Source of the DNA: Escherichia phage LHE287
Sequence record: PP761450.1
DNA: 64,000 nucleotides
Reading direction: 5' to 3' (one strand)
The notes below the pieces were generated by a model. The model was not told the origin of the DNA, did no database searches, and was given only the letters and a program-made list of their open reading frames with translations. Numbering within the stretch: the first letter of the stretch is position 1; each line of letters opens with the position of its first letter. Both the position numbers and the translations under genes were made by a program. Positions 5,514 through 48,260 of the stretch are shown in pieces.

Positions 5514-5661
5514 AAGAAAATACCTCCACAATGAATGCAGAGGTATTTAAAGTGAAAGTGAACTACTCGAGGAGCTGGGGGAAGACTTTGTTCGAATGTG
5601 TCGGCAACCCAGAGAGTGCCAAAGAGGATTGAATGACTGCGATCTCCTCCCAAGACCTGAT

Positions 5662-5680
5662 AGGGGGAGTTGCCTCCCCT
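5662..5680. other. hairpin sharing sequence with the prs-nampt terminator
   Basis: AGGGGGAG-TTGC-CTCCCCT. Confidence 0.4.
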
Positions 5681-5696
5681 ATGTTACACGTCTGGA

Positions 5697-6185
5697 TTAG
5701 GCCAGTTTGCTCACCAGAGCTTCAACTGCGTCGGCGCTCAGTTTACCCATTTTGACGTACTGAGCTTTTGCTTCGCCACCAACAGCTTTCACGATGTCGG
5801 TGTTGTCATACCCCTTCTTAGGGAAGACCATCACAGAGAAGGAACCGTTGTTCAGCGGGTTCAGCTGGATGCGACCTTTACCGACTACGATGGTGCCGTA
5901 AGTTTCGGTGTTGGCTTCGACAATGTGGATGTCGTGACCCAGGTTTTTCAGCATACCAACTTTGTCGGCAGTCTTAGCAACCACAGCTTTGTCAACCACA
6001 ACCTGCTCTACCAGGGTGAAGCCGTTTGTCGATTTCACTTTACCGTTCAGCAGGTTCATGAAGGAAGTTTTACCACCAGTGAATCCAGCTGCCTGAGCGA
6101 TGCGGAACATTTCAACTTTAGCAACTTCGGTGTTCAGTTCGAAAGAGATGGTGCCGTTGGTGATCAGAGTTTTGGTAGTAGCCAT
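5697..6185 (-). CDS. hypothetical protein (162 aa)
   Basis: ATG 6185 with GAGGA SD (track start is GTG 6221); downstream of an early-type promoter; no recognisable motif. Confidence 0.55.
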   Translation of the reverse strand: MATTKTLITNGTISFELNTEVAKVEMFRIAQAAGFTGGKTSFMNLLNGKVKSTNGFTLVEQVVVDKAVVAKTADKVGMLKNLGHDIHIVEANTETYGTIVVGKGRIQLNPLNNGSFSVMVFPKKGYDNTDIVKAVGGEAKAQYVKMGKLSADAVEALVSKLA

Positions 6186-6258
6186 GATGTAATTCCTCAT
6201 AATGTAGTTGGTGCGTTTCACTTTTCATTCGGCGGTGTGTTGTCGCCCTATGTGAACT

Positions 6259-6288
6259 ATAATAGTGCATCATTATTGAAGAGTAAAG
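6259..6288 (-). promoter_or_regulatory. early-type promoter (-35 CTTTAC, 18 bp, -10 TATTAT) upstream of 5697..6185
   Basis: minus strand reads CTTTACtcttcaataatgatgcacTATTAT; same architecture as repeated cassettes. Confidence 0.5.
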
Positions 6289-6296
6289 TCTTTTTC

Positions 6297-6316
6297 AATA
6301 ATTTTTAAAAATTATT
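6297..6316. repeat. perfect 20-bp A/T palindrome
   Basis: AATAATTTTTAAAAATTATT equals its own reverse complement; between terminator and early promoter. Confidence 0.85.
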
Positions 6317-6319
6317 TTT

Positions 6320-6353
6320 GAAGTATTTTAAAAGGCCTCGTCGAATGAGGCCT
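6320..6353 (-). terminator. rho-independent terminator
   Basis: hairpin AGGCCTC-GTCGAAT-GAGGCCT followed on minus strand by TTTTAAAATAC. Confidence 0.6.
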
Positions 6354-6381
6354 GGAGGGAAGTAATGTGAAGTAAAAAGTT

Positions 6382-6588
6382 TTAGTTCGGGCGAAATCTT
6401 ACAAACTCGCGAGCCAATTCGGCCTGCTCATCACTGATGGGAACCCCATGGAAGTCCGCCTGACCATTCTTCCAGCCGTGGATGAAACTCAGAGACTCTT
6501 CCCCAGATAAGACATACCCCTCACGAGATTTCAAGTACCCCCGCACGATCTCTCCGTCGTCCAGTTTGTTCAGTTCTTCTAACGTCAT
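6382..6588 (-). CDS. hypothetical small protein (68 aa)
   Basis: ATG overlaps the primase stop (ATGA), suggesting translational coupling. Confidence 0.45.
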   Translation of the reverse strand: MTLEELNKLDDGEIVRGYLKSREGYVLSGEESLSFIHGWKNGQADFHGVPISDEQAELAREFVRFRPN

Positions 6589-7643
6589 CGCACTTTCCTC
6601 AGTTCAGCAAATTGTAATGATGCGGCCATACCTTGGTAAACGTTCTTGGCGATTAGCTTCAGGAGGTCTTGTATGGACATGTTGCCCTTTGATGGCATAA
6701 CCATGTCGTTGATATCCTTCCAAGGAACGTCTGGTGGGAACAGTACAACCTTGACACCTTTATCTATCATCTTCTGAATACCGTCACACACCTGCGGGTT
6801 CCGGTACTGATTATCAGGGATATAAATGTCACCCTTCACGCTCAGTAGATCAGCGTCGGCCGATGCAAGACAGTTGGGTAGGAACAGGCTGTCAATCGGA
6901 CCTTCCACAACCAGCTTGGTCTTGTGAATGTTCACCCGGTCTTCACCATACACCTTAGTGTCTTCATCCTTGGGCTTGACTGTTGCGTAGCGCAGTGTCG
7001 CATTCTTGTCGAATGCACGCCCCTGAACGATCTTCATGCGACCATCCTGAGTCCAGAACGGAATCACCAGGCGCTCGTCATCGGGGATTTTCAGCTGCTT
7101 CTCAGGGTTCGTTTCGAACTGGAGTAGATCCTGGCGGAAGTGCTGTGTGTAATACAGGAGGGACAAAGTGCTCTCCGGCAGTCCACGCCACTGTACGTAC
7201 TGTCGAGCCTTATGGTCAGGCGGTAGCAGATCAAGCCGTAGCATATTGCCGAGGAGGCTCTCGTCGCGTTTCGCCGCCACCGAGCCAATACGGGCGGTCT
7301 GTGTCAGCTTTGGTAACGGCTTCAGGGAAGGAAGTGGTCTGCCCGACGTATCACCCAGCAGACGGAACTTCTCCATGTTGTATTCTGTTGAGAGGCGCTC
7401 ATCGAACTTCTTCAACCAGAACTCAAATGACCAGCCATTCATCTGGTTGCAGTTGTGGCACTTGAACCGGAAGCAGTCATGATCCCGATCATAGAAGAAG
7501 TATCCACGGCGCTTGTTAGCAGACTTCGTGGAGTCACCGCACAGAGGGCAACGGAAGTTCGCAACAGAACCCACGCGCTCCCACTTGAACTTGTCAAGGC
7601 GAGGTGACACGTTGTTGATAAATTGCTCGTCAAGAAATTTCAT
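6585..7643 (-). CDS. gp61: DNA primase (T4 gp61-like)
   Basis: zinc ribbon CPLCGDSTKSANKRRGYF...CHNCN resembles T4 gp61 N-terminus; TOPRIM-like VVEGPIDSL; start set to ATG 7643 (track start 7721 is TTG). Confidence 0.8.
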   Translation of the reverse strand: MKFLDEQFINNVSPRLDKFKWERVGSVANFRCPLCGDSTKSANKRRGYFFYDRDHDCFRFKCHNCNQMNGWSFEFWLKKFDERLSTEYNMEKFRLLGDTSGRPLPSLKPLPKLTQTARIGSVAAKRDESLLGNMLRLDLLPPDHKARQYVQWRGLPESTLSLLYYTQHFRQDLLQFETNPEKQLKIPDDERLVIPFWTQDGRMKIVQGRAFDKNATLRYATVKPKDEDTKVYGEDRVNIHKTKLVVEGPIDSLFLPNCLASADADLLSVKGDIYIPDNQYRNPQVCDGIQKMIDKGVKVVLFPPDVPWKDINDMVMPSKGNMSIQDLLKLIAKNVYQGMAASLQFAELRKVR

Positions 7644-27033: not shown

Positions 27034-27084
27034 GATATAATCTTACCTTTCAACCCGGTGAACCCATCGTTCGCCAGTTATTGA

Positions 27085-27114
27085 ATAATACGCATTTACC
27101 TTATAGAAGTAAAC
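27085..27114 (-). promoter_or_regulatory. early-type promoter in 57-bp repeat copy 1 (-35 GTTTAC, -10 TATTAT)
   Basis: minus strand GTTTACttctataaggtaaatgcgTATTAT upstream of 26794..27033. Confidence 0.55.
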
Positions 27115-27118
27115 CCCT

Positions 27119-27149
27119 AAAAGTAAAAATCCCCAACAAACGTTGGGGA
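27119..27149 (-). terminator. rho-independent terminator (repeat copy 1)
   Basis: CCCCAAC-AAAC-GTTGGGG then ATTTTTAC on minus strand. Confidence 0.7.
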
Positions 27150-27166
27150 TTTAATAAAAGTTATGC

Positions 27167-27391
27167 CTATTTAATTTCTCGGCTTGAATTTTCTAGTTCT
27201 AATTTTCTTATAGCGGAAATTCTGCCTTCATCAGTTGCGGGAAACTCCCAAACAGCACGACGCCCATTGTTGGTATCACAACTTGCCAGCCAGCAGAAAT
27301 TAGAGGGGTCCTTAAACAAGACCAACTTCGGATTTCCTAAATTGATGAGGTTAAACGGGGTGAGGTCAACAACACATGATATAGCAGACAT
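27167..27391 (-). CDS. hypothetical small protein (74 aa)
   Basis: flanked by both copies of 57-bp promoter/terminator repeat; GAAGG SD. Confidence 0.5.
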   Translation of the reverse strand: MSAISCVVDLTPFNLINLGNPKLVLFKDPSNFCWLASCDTNNGRRAVWEFPATDEGRISAIRKLELENSSREIK

Positions 27392-27440
27392 AACATATAC
27401 CTTCTTTCAATGAACGGGAACGCCCCGATCTATGAATTCA

Positions 27441-27470
27441 ATAATACGCATTTACCTTATAGAAGTAAAC
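27441..27470 (-). promoter_or_regulatory. early-type promoter in 57-bp repeat copy 2 (-35 GTTTAC, -10 TATTAT)
   Basis: identical to copy 1; upstream of 27167..27391. Confidence 0.55.
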
Positions 27471-27474
27471 CCCT

Positions 27475-27505
27475 AAAAGTAAAAATCCCCAACGTTTGTT
27501 GGGGA
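27475..27505 (-). terminator. rho-independent terminator after ACP-like gene (repeat copy 2)
   Basis: CCCCAAC-GTTT-GTTGGGG then ATTTTTAC on minus strand. Confidence 0.7.
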
Positions 27506-27511
27506 CTTCTG

Positions 27512-27835
27512 TTATTTGCGCAGGGCAACCACGAGTTCAGCGAGTTCACCCATGGTCGGGTCGTCGCCTTTACTACCTAGCCACCCGTCGTCGATTTCGA
27601 CCTGAAACTCTTCTTCGAGGTCCATTACAATTTCGATAGCGTCCAGTTCATCACCGCCGAGGTCTTTCTTGGTACGGAGGCCAGCCAGCTTGTCCAGGGC
27701 GTCCTCGTTCTGAGATGCCACGTCGTCCAGCAATTTGCGCTTGTCATCGTCACGCCACAGATCCATATTCAGATTGTCAGTGGCGTACTGAGCCAGATGA
27801 CGCATGACTTCAACATATGTTGGCTTACTGCTCAT
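27512..27835 (-). CDS. acyl-carrier-protein-like protein with Glu at the phosphopantetheine-site position
   Basis: 107 aa; DLGGDELDAIEIVMDLEEEFQVEID aligns with E. coli AcpP [26 protein letters not shown], with Ser replaced by Glu; GGGAGAAG SD. Confidence 0.7.
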   Translation of the reverse strand: MSSKPTYVEVMRHLAQYATDNLNMDLWRDDDKRKLLDDVASQNEDALDKLAGLRTKKDLGGDELDAIEIVMDLEEEFQVEIDDGWLGSKGDDPTMGELAELVVALRK

Positions 27836-40723: not shown

Positions 40724-41392
40724 TTACTCAATCTGTGCGCCGACGAAGTAATTGATCGTCGCGTCGGATGATTGGAAGTTCACCATCTGTAGATCAGCAC
40801 AGGCACGCAGAGTGTAGTTGCCTTCGATCATTTTCAGGTTGGCAACATCCAGTGGCATTACGAAGTCCGGCAGCGCGGTTTCGCCCAGCTCAACAGTGTA
40901 GTTGTTGGAGTTGTCTAGGGTAGTGGTGGTTGCAACCAGGCGTGTTTTGCCACCCTGAGCAACCAGACGCACAGTCTTGTGTCCGAGGGTAGAGCAGGCG
41001 CGGGTCAGTTCTTTCATCTTCTCTGGAGTGATGATCGCTTCAAAGTCAACAGACGGCAGTTCAATAGTATCAGCCGGAACAACAGTGAGTTCTTTAGCAG
41101 AACGCCAGAATTGCAGCTGAGAGCTTTCGCCTTTCAACAGGATGTAGTCCTGATGAAATTCGGCTTTGGCACCTTTGAAGGAAGGTAGGCGCTGGATGGC
41201 CAGAAGTTTGGTCAGGTCCAGAATCGGGAACTCAAACGGGAAGTCTTCTTCGATCTGCGCCACGGCGATCACAGTAGAAGAATCATTAATACTGCGCAGC
41301 ATCTTGCCTGGTGTCAGAACGATAGATGGGTTGATGGTCTCAAAGTTGGCCAGCAACTGAAGTGTACGTTCGGAGAGAGTGATCTCTTGCAT
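40724..41392 (-). CDS. gp45: sliding clamp (T4 gp45-like)
   Basis: 222 aa; LQLLANFETINPSIVL vs T4 gp45 TALLKNFATINSGIML; GAGGA SD. Confidence 0.85.
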   Translation of the reverse strand: MQEITLSERTLQLLANFETINPSIVLTPGKMLRSINDSSTVIAVAQIEEDFPFEFPILDLTKLLAIQRLPSFKGAKAEFHQDYILLKGESSQLQFWRSAKELTVVPADTIELPSVDFEAIITPEKMKELTRACSTLGHKTVRLVAQGGKTRLVATTTTLDNSNNYTVELGETALPDFVMPLDVANLKMIEGNYTLRACADLQMVNFQSSDATINYFVGAQIE

Positions 41393-41519: not shown

Positions 41520-41524
41520 ATGGA

Positions 41525-41571
41525 CTTTATTAAAGATAATAACCTTTATTAAAGATAATAACCTTTATTAA
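41525..41571. repeat. 19-bp tandem repeat, 2.5 copies
   Basis: CTTTATTAAAGATAATAAC x2 plus CTTTATTAA. Confidence 0.85.
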
Positions 41572-41753: not shown

Positions 41754-42125
41754 ATGAAACAGTTCGTAGGATTATACGCAGTCGGGTGTAGTAAGCCAGA
41801 CGCCAACCTCACCACAGGTCAATTTATCACAGGCACCCCAGTTTATCTGACACAGCTGGCGTCAGACAAGAACTTACCATCGGAGCCGCGATTTGTCCCT
41901 CTGGGTTTGATGACAGGCCTGAAAGTTGGTCTGTATGTCGGTGCGGTGACGTTTGAAAACGGCATCGAAGCGAAGGTTCTGCCATTCAAATTGGGTAGCG
42001 AACAAATGCTGAAGGATACGATCAGTGAACACCTGAACTCACAATGTCTGGCTTCTCTGGACAAATTGTTCGGTGTAGTAACTGATGAAGGCGAGGCCAC
42101 CCCCGCCTATGTGAATCAAGATTAA
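41754..42125 (+). CDS. hypothetical protein (123 aa), plus strand
   Basis: ATG 41754; follows 360-bp divergent intergenic region containing TATAAT. Confidence 0.5.
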   Translation: MKQFVGLYAVGCSKPDANLTTGQFITGTPVYLTQLASDKNLPSEPRFVPLGLMTGLKVGLYVGAVTFENGIEAKVLPFKLGSEQMLKDTISEHLNSQCLASLDKLFGVVTDEGEATPAYVNQD

Positions 42126-47969: not shown

Positions 47970-47998
47970 AGTATACGGGGTTTATTGAAGAATTAAAC
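47970..47998 (-). promoter_or_regulatory. early-type promoter, cassette copy C (-35 GTTTAA, -10 TATACT)
   Basis: minus strand GTTTAAttcttcaataaaccccgTATACT; -35 sits inside a 10-bp-stem hairpin (47975-48003). Confidence 0.5.
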
Positions 47999-48023
47999 CC
48001 CGTATATTGAATAAATTTAAAAT

Positions 48024-48260
48024 TTATTTGAAGCGATCAGGAAGGGTGTCGTGAACCTCGGCGCTCAGCACCAGAAACTTACCATCCGTCGTTGGGAAGC
48101 AATAGTCTTTCTTGATGTGACGCAAGTGTTCAGCTACAGCTGCTACGCAGTCATCTGTCACGTCGGTCTTCTCACCAACCCACATGCTGGTTTTGGTGTT
48201 CAACCTGCCCTGGAATATAGTACCAGTGAGAGGACTTGCGCCGATCTTTTTGATAATCAT
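48024..48260 (-). CDS. hypothetical protein (78 aa)
   Basis: ORF only. Confidence 0.45.
   Translation of the reverse strand: MIIKKIGASPLTGTIFQGRLNTKTSMWVGEKTDVTDDCVAAVAEHLRHIKKDYCFPTTDGKFLVLSAEVHDTLPDRFK

What the first reader, a model, noticed from the sequence alone, without database searches (positions are those of the whole stretch)
6297..6316. Perfect 20-bp A/T palindrome between a terminator and an early promoter
AATAATTTTTAAAAATTATT is its own reverse complement and sits directly upstream of a CTTTAC-18-TATTAT promoter. This is either a dimeric-protein operator or a strongly bent UP-like element.
Basis: seen in the sequence. Interest (0 to 1): 0.35.

Follow-up and report, generated by a model that had tools for sequence, protein, structure and literature searches.

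The report
A/T-tract upstream element of phage promoter
The perfect 20-bp A/T palindrome is real, but it is most likely one short-lived spelling of an A/T-only block that helps the host RNA polymerase bind a strong T4-style phage promoter, which is an ordinary kind of element and not a repressor site.

Summary
AATAATTTTTAAAAATTATT is at 6297-6316, as reported. The window comes from an Ackermannviridae phage that is 98% identical to Escherichia phage A221. The genes here lie on the minus strand. Reading that strand, the palindrome follows a hairpin terminator and lies 8 nt upstream of CTTTAC-N18-TATTAT.

That promoter belongs to a family: 7 copies in the window and 8 in the A221 genome, against about 1 expected by chance. 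The family has the same layout as T4 early promoters.

- **Not conserved:** only 4 of 36 orthologous loci, all near-identical strains, carry the palindrome. The other loci have palindromes of 8-14 bp. The block is 18-22 nt long and has 10 alleles.
- **Always A/T:** all 36 blocks contain only A and T, whereas in the neighbouring gene most changes at A/T sites (81%) go to G/C.
- **Best UP match:** the block is the only match to the UP-element consensus (13 of 14 specified positions) in the window, on the promoter's strand.
- **Unique:** no second copy exists in the genome, even allowing 3 mismatches.
- **Weak structure:** predicted curvature and hairpin stability are unremarkable.

Verdict: this is an UP-type A/T-tract element. 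The perfect symmetry is probably incidental, because T5A5 is its own reverse complement. The operator reading is not supported. Interest is low.

The parts
6382..6588 (-). Upstream 68-aa ORF (phrog_4460, unknown function), overlapping the 3' end of the DNA primase gene by a few bases. Its stop codon precedes the terminator.
6330..6354 (-). Hairpin AGGCCUC-AUUCGAC-GAGGCCU followed by UUUU. It is a probable, weak-tailed intrinsic terminator for the primase/68-aa transcript.
   Evidence: RNA fold. The GGCCTC/GAGGCC stem is constant and the loop varies across genera. The LIMEstone1 ortholog is annotated as a putative terminator. The consensus scan did not call it.
6297..6319 (-). A/T-only block of 23 nt (minus strand: AAAAATAATTTTTAAAAATTATT), proposed to be the distal and far-distal UP-type element. 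It contains the 17-mers at 6319-6303 and 6318-6302, each matching the UP consensus at 13 of 14 specified positions.
   Evidence: It is A/T-only in all 36 orthologs.
6297..6316 (.). The reported perfect 20-bp palindrome AATAATTTTTAAAAATTATT, at about -65 to -46 from the predicted start site. It is a lineage-specific allele of the A/T block.
   Evidence: Present in 4 of 36 orthologous loci.
6290..6298 (-). TTGAAAAAG. Its A5 tract (6295-6291, about -44 to -40) is the proposed proximal alpha-subunit subsite. TTGAAA is also an alternative -35 hexamer, placed canonically 4 nt after the UP match, but its candidate -10 (AATGAT) is not conserved.
6273..6301 (-). Inverted repeat TTATTGAA-N13-TTCAATAA bracketing the -35 hexamer. 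Its left arm overlaps the last 5 nt of the palindrome. Its function is unexplained.
6282..6288 (-). The -35 element CTTTACT (TTTACT at 6287-6282), of the T4-early type (G/C)TTTAC.
6259..6264 (-). The -10 hexamer TATTAT.
   Evidence: Annotated as minus_10_signal in LIMEstone1.
6250..6252 (-). CAT, the predicted transcription start (A at 6251). This is inferred from its distance to the -10 hexamer and from the CATA(A/G)G motif shared by family members. It has not been measured.
   Evidence: inference
6231..6247 (-). 5'-UTR hairpin GGCG-loop-CGCC, which is GGCGG/CCGCC in relatives. The stem is constant and the loop varies between genera.
5697..6198 (-). Shine-Dalgarno GAGGA (6198-6194), ATG (6185-6183) and the 162-aa gene that the promoter drives. 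The family is restricted to Ackermannviridae-like phages and its function is unknown.

Best explanation
The palindrome is one allele of an A/T-only block of alternating A and T tracts. This block serves as the upstream (UP-type) element of a strong sigma-70-dependent phage promoter with the T4-early layout: (C/G)TTTAC, 18 nt, TAnnAT.

Proposed mechanism, which is inferred and not measured:
[quoted passage not shown] These centre near -42 (GAAAAAG) and -53 (T5A5), and possibly near -63 to -66.
- This raises polymerase recruitment to the core promoter, which drives a conserved 162-aa gene of unknown function placed directly after the upstream terminator.

What selection preserves is A/T-only composition and tract structure, not a particular sequence. 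The perfect dyad symmetry in this strain is a by-product, for two reasons: T5A5 is inherently self-complementary, and tract-length changes and A/T swaps happen to complete the symmetry in this lineage.
For: **Shown here**
1. The core promoter is real and belongs to a family. TTTAMT-N16/17-TATNNT occurs 7 times in the window and 8 times in the A221 genome, always on the coding strand and mostly straight after a hairpin. Shuffles give about 1.
2. The promoter core is nearly invariant across four genera (Agtrevirus-like, Limestonevirus, Kuttervirus, Taipeivirus), and its -35 and -10 hexamers recur in the more distant relatives.
3. The block is the only match to AAAWWTWTTTTNNNAAA with 1 mismatch or fewer in the 64-kb window, and it lies on the promoter's strand. 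It is one of only 3 such places in the A221 genome. The commonest relatives' allele, AAAAATATTTTAAAAAT, also scores 13 of 14 (my hand count against the consensus).
4. All 36 orthologs have an A/T-only block of 18-22 nt, with 10 alleles that differ only by A/T swaps and tract length. In the adjacent gene, only 36 of 190 changes at A/T sites stay A/T.
5. The palindrome occurs in only 4 of 36 loci, all with at least 98% gene identity to the window. Relatives just as close (PC3, RPN242, fGh-Ecl02, AV101 and the metagenome contig CYGL01000298) lack it.
6. T4 early promoters in the 140-169 kb region have the same layout. For example, PmotA reads hairpin-TTTTTTATTTTAAAAATTTTTT-CACAAAACG-GTTTAC-N18-TACTAT.

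**From the literature**
- The UP consensus, and subsites near -42 and -52: PMC2412878.
- UP elements are alternating A and T tracts. Alpha-subunit sites lie at -43, -53 and -63. Tract counts predict strength better than position matrices do: PMC3326320.
- T4 early promoters combine UP, -35, TGn and -10 elements: PMC2988021.
Against: - No expression, start-site or binding data exist for this phage family. A literature search for transcription start sites in Ackermannviridae found nothing.
- Relative to the conserved TTTACT hexamer, the 13-of-14 UP match lies about one helical turn further upstream than the canonical -57 to -41. Only the GAAAAAG tract sits at the canonical proximal position. The match is canonical only relative to TTGAAA, whose candidate -10 is not conserved.
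- Other members of the promoter family have quite different upstream sequences.
- A paralogous promoter at 47997 carries another A/T block with 9+1+9 dyad symmetry. The symmetry is kept in three genera, so dyad symmetry may not be wholly accidental.
Confidence: 0.68

Rival explanations
1. Operator for a dimeric DNA-binding protein, phage-encoded or host, that recognises the dyad AATAATTTTT/AAAAATTATT and represses or activates the adjacent promoter.
For: - Perfect 10+10 symmetry in the window.
- A second A/T block upstream of the paralogous promoter at 47997 has 9+1+9 symmetry (AATAAATTT-T-AAATTTATT) with similar outer bases. The symmetry is kept in LIMEstone1, moki and GG32.
- The promoter-proximal end of the palindrome overlaps the conserved 8-mer TTATTGAA.
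Against: - The symmetry is absent in 32 of 36 orthologs, including strains with 97-99% identity in the neighbouring gene. In those loci the longest palindrome in the scanned stretch is 8-14 bp, and 8-12 bp within the A/T block.
- The block length varies from 18 to 22 nt, which would break any half-site spacing.
- No second site exists in the window or in the A221 genome with 3 or fewer mismatches.
- In IMG/VR the exact 20-mer occurs in 9 contigs, of which only one was also recovered in the ortholog scan.
- No candidate binding protein was identified.
Confidence: 0.08
2. Architectural element: intrinsically curved DNA, or a site for a host nucleoid protein that prefers A/T-rich DNA (Fis, IHF, H-NS). 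It would act through DNA shape, not through direct contact with the alpha C-terminal domain.
For: - A tracts recur at roughly helical spacing: centres near -42, -53 and -66, plus AAAA near -76 (read directly from the sequence).
- Composition is strictly A/T-only.
Against: - Predicted wedge-model curvature at the block is about 16 degrees, roughly the 95th percentile of the window, against a window maximum of 34. The parameters were recalled from memory and the implementation is rough.
- T5A5 junctions are known to cancel bending (established knowledge on A4T4 versus T4A4 repeats).
- By eye, no good IHF core is present (my inspection, not a formal scan).
- Length changes of 18-22 nt would alter the phasing.
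Confidence: 0.1
3. No specific function. The block would be a spacer between terminator and promoter, with its composition set by mutation bias and homopolymer slippage. The palindrome would be pure chance or the product of a template-switch 'quasipalindrome correction'.
For: - Many alleles exist among very close strains.
- A palindrome of this length arises in about 6% of shuffled windows.
- The two differences from the SW16-7 allele both lie in one arm and both restore pairing with the other arm. A single templated event would produce exactly this pattern (inference).
Against: - There is no G or C in any of the 36 orthologous blocks across four genera, while 81% of changes at A/T sites in the neighbouring gene go to G/C.
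- It is the best UP-consensus match in the window, on the correct strand.
- The same layout is found at T4 early promoters.
Confidence: 0.1
4. DNA-unwinding element or replication origin next to the primase gene.
For: An A/T-only 23-mer lies beside a promoter and close to the primase gene. T4 origins combine a promoter with an unwinding element (established knowledge).
Against: - The block is short and lies upstream of the promoter, not downstream.
- There are no iterons or repeats here.
- Cumulative GC skew shows no inflection in this region.
- The single-strand hairpin is weak: -3.7 kcal/mol, z = -1.2.
Confidence: 0.02

Closest known systems
T4 early promoters (Pe), e.g. PmotA and the promoters at T4 146875, 161211, 166807 and 167086
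   Same: - The -35 is (G/C)TTTAC, followed by 18 nt and a TAnnAT -10.
- The promoter often sits immediately after a hairpin terminator.
- Upstream lies a block of about 20 nt of alternating T and A tracts (TTTTTTATTTTAAAAATTTTTT in PmotA), then a short A-tract segment (CACAAAACG in T4, GAAAAAGA here) just before the -35.
- T4 early promoters are described as UP/-35/TGn/-10 promoters (PMC2988021).
   Different: - The phage family is different (Ackermannviridae, not Straboviridae).
- There is no TGn extended -10 here.
- The spacer carries a family-specific TCTTCAATAA motif.
- Timing (early or middle) has not been measured.
- Whether an Alt/ModA-type modification of the alpha subunit occurs in these phages is unknown.
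E. coli UP element (rrnB P1 type; consensus AAAWWTWTTTTNNNAAA)
   Same: - A match of 13 of 14 specified positions, on the promoter's strand.
- Alternating A and T tracts.
- Tract centres close to the alpha-subunit subsites at -43, -53 and -63.
   Different: - The full consensus match sits about 10 bp further upstream of the conserved -35 than in rrnB P1.
- It is canonical only relative to the alternative hexamer TTGAAA.
- No alpha C-terminal domain dependence has been tested.
Tract-length 'rheostat' promoters (e.g. the Helicobacter pylori sabA T-tract, PMC4081817)
   Same: Homopolymer tracts upstream of the -35 change length between very close strains, here 18-22 nt.
   Different: There is no evidence here that length changes alter expression or are selected. 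PMC4081817 appeared only in a search listing and I did not read it.
Palindromic repressor operators (lambda/434/P22 type)
   Same: Dyad symmetry next to a promoter.
   Different: The symmetry is not conserved, the spacing is not conserved, there is only one site in the genome, and no cognate protein is known.

Membership tests
UP element of a sigma-70 promoter | An A/T-rich sequence between about -40 and -60 (far-distal to -65), upstream of a functional -35/-10 core. | tested here: met
   The block and the GAAAAAG tract span about -68 to -40 from the predicted start site at 6251. The core TTTACT-17-TATTAT is conserved and belongs to a family. The start site is inferred, not measured.
UP element of a sigma-70 promoter | Match to the consensus AAAWWTWTTTTNNNAAA at -57 to -41, in the promoter's orientation. 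| tested here: inconclusive
   The match is 13 of 14, unique in the window and correctly oriented. It lies at about -68 to -52 relative to the conserved core, one helical turn upstream of the canonical position. It is canonical only relative to TTGAAA.
UP element of a sigma-70 promoter | Stimulation of transcription that depends on the alpha C-terminal domain (R265). | not testable with these tools
   This needs in vitro transcription or footprinting with wild-type and alpha-CTD-deleted RNA polymerase.
UP element of a sigma-70 promoter | Selection acts on A/T tracts, not on the exact sequence. | tested here: met
   36 of 36 orthologs are A/T-only, with 10 alleles. The neighbouring gene shows 81% of changes at A/T sites going to G/C. 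Tract models outperform position matrices (PMC3326320).
T4-type early promoter | (G)TTTAC -35, about 17-18 nt of spacer, a TAnnAT -10, and upstream A/T tracts. | tested here: met
   CTTTAC-18-TATTAT with a T5A5 block upstream. Compared directly with T4 promoters. The paralog at 47997 is annotated as a putative early promoter in LIMEstone1.
T4-type early promoter | Activity immediately after infection, without phage protein synthesis. | not testable with these tools
   No transcriptome or start-site data were found for Ackermannviridae.
T4-type middle promoter (MotA/AsiA dependent), as annotated for the LIMEstone1 ortholog | A MotA box (a/t)(a/t)(a/t)TGCTT(t/c)A centred at -30, 11-13 bp upstream of the -10. 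| tested here: not met
   The sequence at that position is CTCTTCAATAA. The annotators matched only 'CTT'. The CTTTA that resembles the MotA-box core lies 19 nt from the -10. No MotA or AsiA is annotated in A221, although missing annotation is weak evidence.
Dimeric-protein operator | Dyad symmetry and half-site spacing conserved among relatives. | tested here: not met
   The palindrome is present in 4 of 36 loci, and the block length varies from 18 to 22 nt.
Dimeric-protein operator | Further copies of the site, or a cognate regulator, in the genome. | tested here: not met
   The site is unique with 3 or fewer mismatches in the window and in the 153-kb A221 genome. No regulator was identified.
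Intrinsically curved (phased A-tract) DNA | High predicted or measured curvature. | tested here: inconclusive
   A rough wedge model gives about 16 degrees, roughly the 95th percentile of the window. The parameters were recalled from memory, and no gel data exist.

The most novel reading that the evidence does not exclude
The symmetry may not be wholly accidental. A phage or host factor could recognise A/T dyads such as AATAAWTTT...AAAWTTATT upstream of a subset of these promoters: this one, and the block at 48011-48029. It might act together with the conserved TTATTGAA/TTCAATAA 8-mers that bracket the -35. Alternatively, the tract-length polymorphism (18-22 nt among strains with at least 97% gene identity) could act as an evolutionary 'rheostat' that tunes expression of the conserved 162-aa early gene by changing the phasing of the upstream subsites.
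Probability: 0.1. Interest if true: 0.45.

Novelty: new member of a known kind. Interest (0 to 1): 0.15.

Why it matters
If the reading is right, Ackermannviridae phages (the ViI/CBA120/LIMEstone group, used in biocontrol) recruit host RNA polymerase with the same UP-plus-(G/C)TTTAC promoter design as T4 early promoters. This helps promoter annotation in the group. The LIMEstone1 record labels the ortholog a 'middle' promoter on the strength of a 3-nt match. It also marks the 162-aa protein of unknown function as a probable strongly expressed early product. It does not reveal a new regulatory mechanism. The case is a reminder that A/T-tract elements generate perfect palindromes easily.

Tried and rejected
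- **Other copies:** I searched for copies of the palindrome in the window, the A221 genome, IMG/VR and one metagenome scan. No related sites turned up apart from orthologs.
- **Cruciform or hairpin:** the DNA fold is -3.7 kcal/mol with z = -1.2, so it is not special.
- **Intrinsic curvature:** the wedge model gives an unremarkable value.
- **Known RNA families:** none in 5600-6700.
- **TTGAAA-18-AATGAT as the real core:** rejected as the main promoter because the -10 decays in other lineages: AAAGCT in Taipeivirus, AACTGG in 2050H1 and AATGAC in one Kuttervirus.
- **MotA-box middle promoter:** rejected on sequence and spacing.
- **Literature:** searches for experimentally mapped Ackermannviridae promoters or start sites found only in-silico predictions.

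Full report
**Observation.** The + strand at 6297-6316 reads AATAATTTTTAAAAATTATT, a perfect 20-bp palindrome. The window comes from an Ackermannviridae phage that is 98% identical to Escherichia phage A221 across the 1.4 kb around the finding. All genes in this region lie on the minus strand.

Reading the minus strand, the order of features is:
- the stop codon of a 68-aa ORF that follows the primase gene
- a 7-bp hairpin AGGCCUC/GAGGCCU followed by UUUU, whose LIMEstone1 ortholog is annotated as a putative terminator
- an A/T-only 23-mer that contains the palindrome
- GAAAAAGA
- CTTTAC, 18 nt, TATTAT, which is the same as TTTACT-17-TATTAT
- a small 5'-UTR hairpin, GAGGA, and the ATG at 6185 of a 162-aa gene

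**Chance.** A perfect palindrome of 20 bp or more appears in 2 of 30 mononucleotide shuffles of the window. Given a 23-nt A/T-only block, the chance is about 0.004. The palindrome's length is therefore only marginally surprising. The rare feature is the A/T-only block itself, which is the longest such run in the window and in the 153-kb A221 genome.

**The promoter is real and belongs to a family.**
- TTTAMT-N16/17-TATNNT occurs 7 times in the window (-35 starts at 6287, 12549, 25402, 27113, 27469, 47997 and 57254) and 8 times in A221.
- Every copy is on the coding strand, and most follow a hairpin directly. Shuffles give about 1.
- Members often share TCTTCAATAA in the spacer and CATA(A/G)G at the predicted start site.
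- The layout matches that of T4 early promoters. In T4's 140-169 kb region, GTTTAC-N18-TAnnAT promoters carry alternating T and A tract blocks upstream. PmotA, for example, reads hairpin-TTTTTTATTTTAAAAATTTTTT-CACAAAACG-GTTTAC.
- Hinton's review describes T4 early promoters as combined UP/-35/TGn/-10 promoters (PMC2988021).
- The LIMEstone1 GenBank record annotates the paralog at 47997 as a putative early promoter (GTTTAC/TATACT). It annotates our ortholog as a putative 'middle' promoter on the basis of TATTAT plus a 3-nt 'CTT'. No MotA box with the required spacing is present.

**Comparative evidence.** I collected 36 orthologous loci from GenBank phages, IMG/VR and one metagenome contig. They cover Agtrevirus-like phages, Limestonevirus, Kuttervirus and Taipeivirus.
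- The core, from TTATTGAAAAAG through TATTATAGTTCACATAGGGCGG, is almost invariant.
- The block between the terminator and TTGAAAAAG has 10 alleles, 18-22 nt long. They differ only by A/T swaps and tract-length changes, and none contains a G or C.
- In the neighbouring gene, only 36 of 190 changes at A/T positions stay A/T. Composition is therefore under selection.
- The 20-bp palindrome occurs in 4 of the 36 loci: the window, A221, ZQ1 and one IMG/VR contig, all with at least 98% gene identity to the window.
- Strains just as close lack it. PC3 has T6, which breaks the symmetry. RPN242 and fGh-Ecl02 have AAAAATATTTTAAAAAATTA. AV101 and CYGL01000298 have shorter blocks.
- In the loci without it, the longest perfect palindrome is 8-14 bp in the scanned stretch and 8-12 bp within the A/T block.
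- More distant homolog loci (2050H1, L028-L030) have A/T-rich but interrupted upstream regions with no palindrome.

**Match to the UP element.**
- The consensus AAAWWTWTTTTNNNAAA (PMC2412878) is matched at 13 of 14 specified positions only at 6302-6319, on the promoter's strand. This is the only match with 1 mismatch or fewer in the window, and one of 3 places in A221.
- I take the A of the conserved CAT at 6251 as +1, which is an inference. The A5 tracts then centre at about -42 and -53, and a third lies near -66. These are close to the alpha-subunit subsites at -43, -53 and -63.
- Rhodius et al. describe UP elements as alternating A and T tracts whose strength is predicted better by tract counts than by position matrices (PMC3326320). 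That explains both the tolerance of A/T swaps and the tendency towards self-complementarity, since AnTn and TnAn are palindromes.
- Caveat: relative to the conserved TTTACT hexamer, the full consensus match lies about one helical turn upstream of the canonical position. It is canonical only relative to TTGAAA, whose -10 (AATGAT) is not conserved.

**Tests of the other readings.**
- Operator: no second site with 3 or fewer mismatches exists in the window or in A221. In IMG/VR the exact 20-mer occurs in 9 contigs, of which only one was also recovered in the ortholog scan. Neither the symmetry nor the spacing is conserved.
- Bend: a rough wedge-model calculation gives about 16 degrees, the 95th percentile of the window. 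This fits the known cancellation of bending at T-tract/A-tract junctions.
- Cruciform: -3.7 kcal/mol, z = -1.2.
- Known RNA families: none.
- Origin: no skew inflection and no iterons.

**What remains open.**
- A paralogous promoter at 47997 has an A/T block with 9+1+9 symmetry (AATAAATTT-T-AAATTTATT). The symmetry is kept in LIMEstone1, moki and GG32, and is 7 of 9 in T751.
- The 8-mers TTATTGAA and TTCAATAA bracket the -35 and are conserved even in distant relatives. In one relative (L028) the two arms are swapped.
- TTCAATAA occurs 31 times in A221, against 5.2 ± 2.5 in shuffles.

These points leave a small probability that a sequence-specific factor acts here.

**Verdict.** The UP-like reading is supported, while the operator and strong-bend readings are not. 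This is a new member of a known kind, the UP-type element of a T4-early-style promoter, and its perfect symmetry is most likely incidental. Interest is low.

Noticed in passing
window, -35 starts at 6287, 12549, 25402, 27113, 27469, 47997 and 57254 (all minus strand): A family of T4-early-style promoters, TTTAMT-N16/17-TATNNT. Most follow a terminator hairpin, often carry TCTTCAATAA in the spacer, and have CATA(A/G)GCAG at the predicted start site. A221 has 8 copies, against about 1 expected by chance.
   Followed up: partly
window 6273-6301 (minus strand); also L006, L028, L029 and L030: The inverted repeat TTATTGAA-N13-TTCAATAA brackets the -35 hexamer. Both 8-mers are conserved in distant relatives while the DNA between them changes. 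In L028 the two arms are swapped (TTCAATAA-N16-TTATTGAA). TTCAATAA occurs 31 times in A221, against 5.2 ± 2.5 in shuffles. Unexplained.
   Followed up: partly
window 48011-48029: A second A/T-only block, AATAAATTT-T-AAATTTATT (9+1+9 dyad), lies upstream of the family promoter at 47997. It is conserved in LIMEstone1, moki and GG32, with only the central base varying.
   Followed up: partly
window 47970-48007 (minus strand): The promoter at 47997 is embedded in an inverted repeat, ACGGGGTTTA...TAAACCCCGT, that spans the -35 through the -10. The same GGGGTTTA/TAAACCCC arrangement appears in the distant ortholog of our promoter in L030.
   Followed up: no
window 6231-6247 (minus strand): A 5'-UTR hairpin GGCG(G)-loop-(C)CGCC lies just after the predicted start site. 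The stem is constant across genera, while the loop differs in length and sequence. It may be an mRNA stabiliser or a regulatory hairpin.
   Followed up: no
window 41524-41570: A 19-bp tandem direct repeat, TAATAAAGGTTATTATCTT, of about 2.5 copies (read on the minus strand). It lies in the intergenic region between the divergent ORFs ending at 41392 and starting at 41754.
   Followed up: no
window about 27050-27170 and 27410-27520: Two nearly identical terminator-plus-promoter modules, CCCCAAC...GTTGGGGATTTTTACTTTTAGGGG-TTTACT-N17-TATTAT, lie 356 bp apart.
   Followed up: no
[not shown]
   Followed up: partly
L045 1429-1498 (LIMEstone1, HE600015 55428-55497): The public LIMEstone1 annotation labels the orthologous promoter 'putative middle promoter', using a 3-nt 'minus_35_signal' (CTT). 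The sequence fits the T4-early pattern better.
   Followed up: yes
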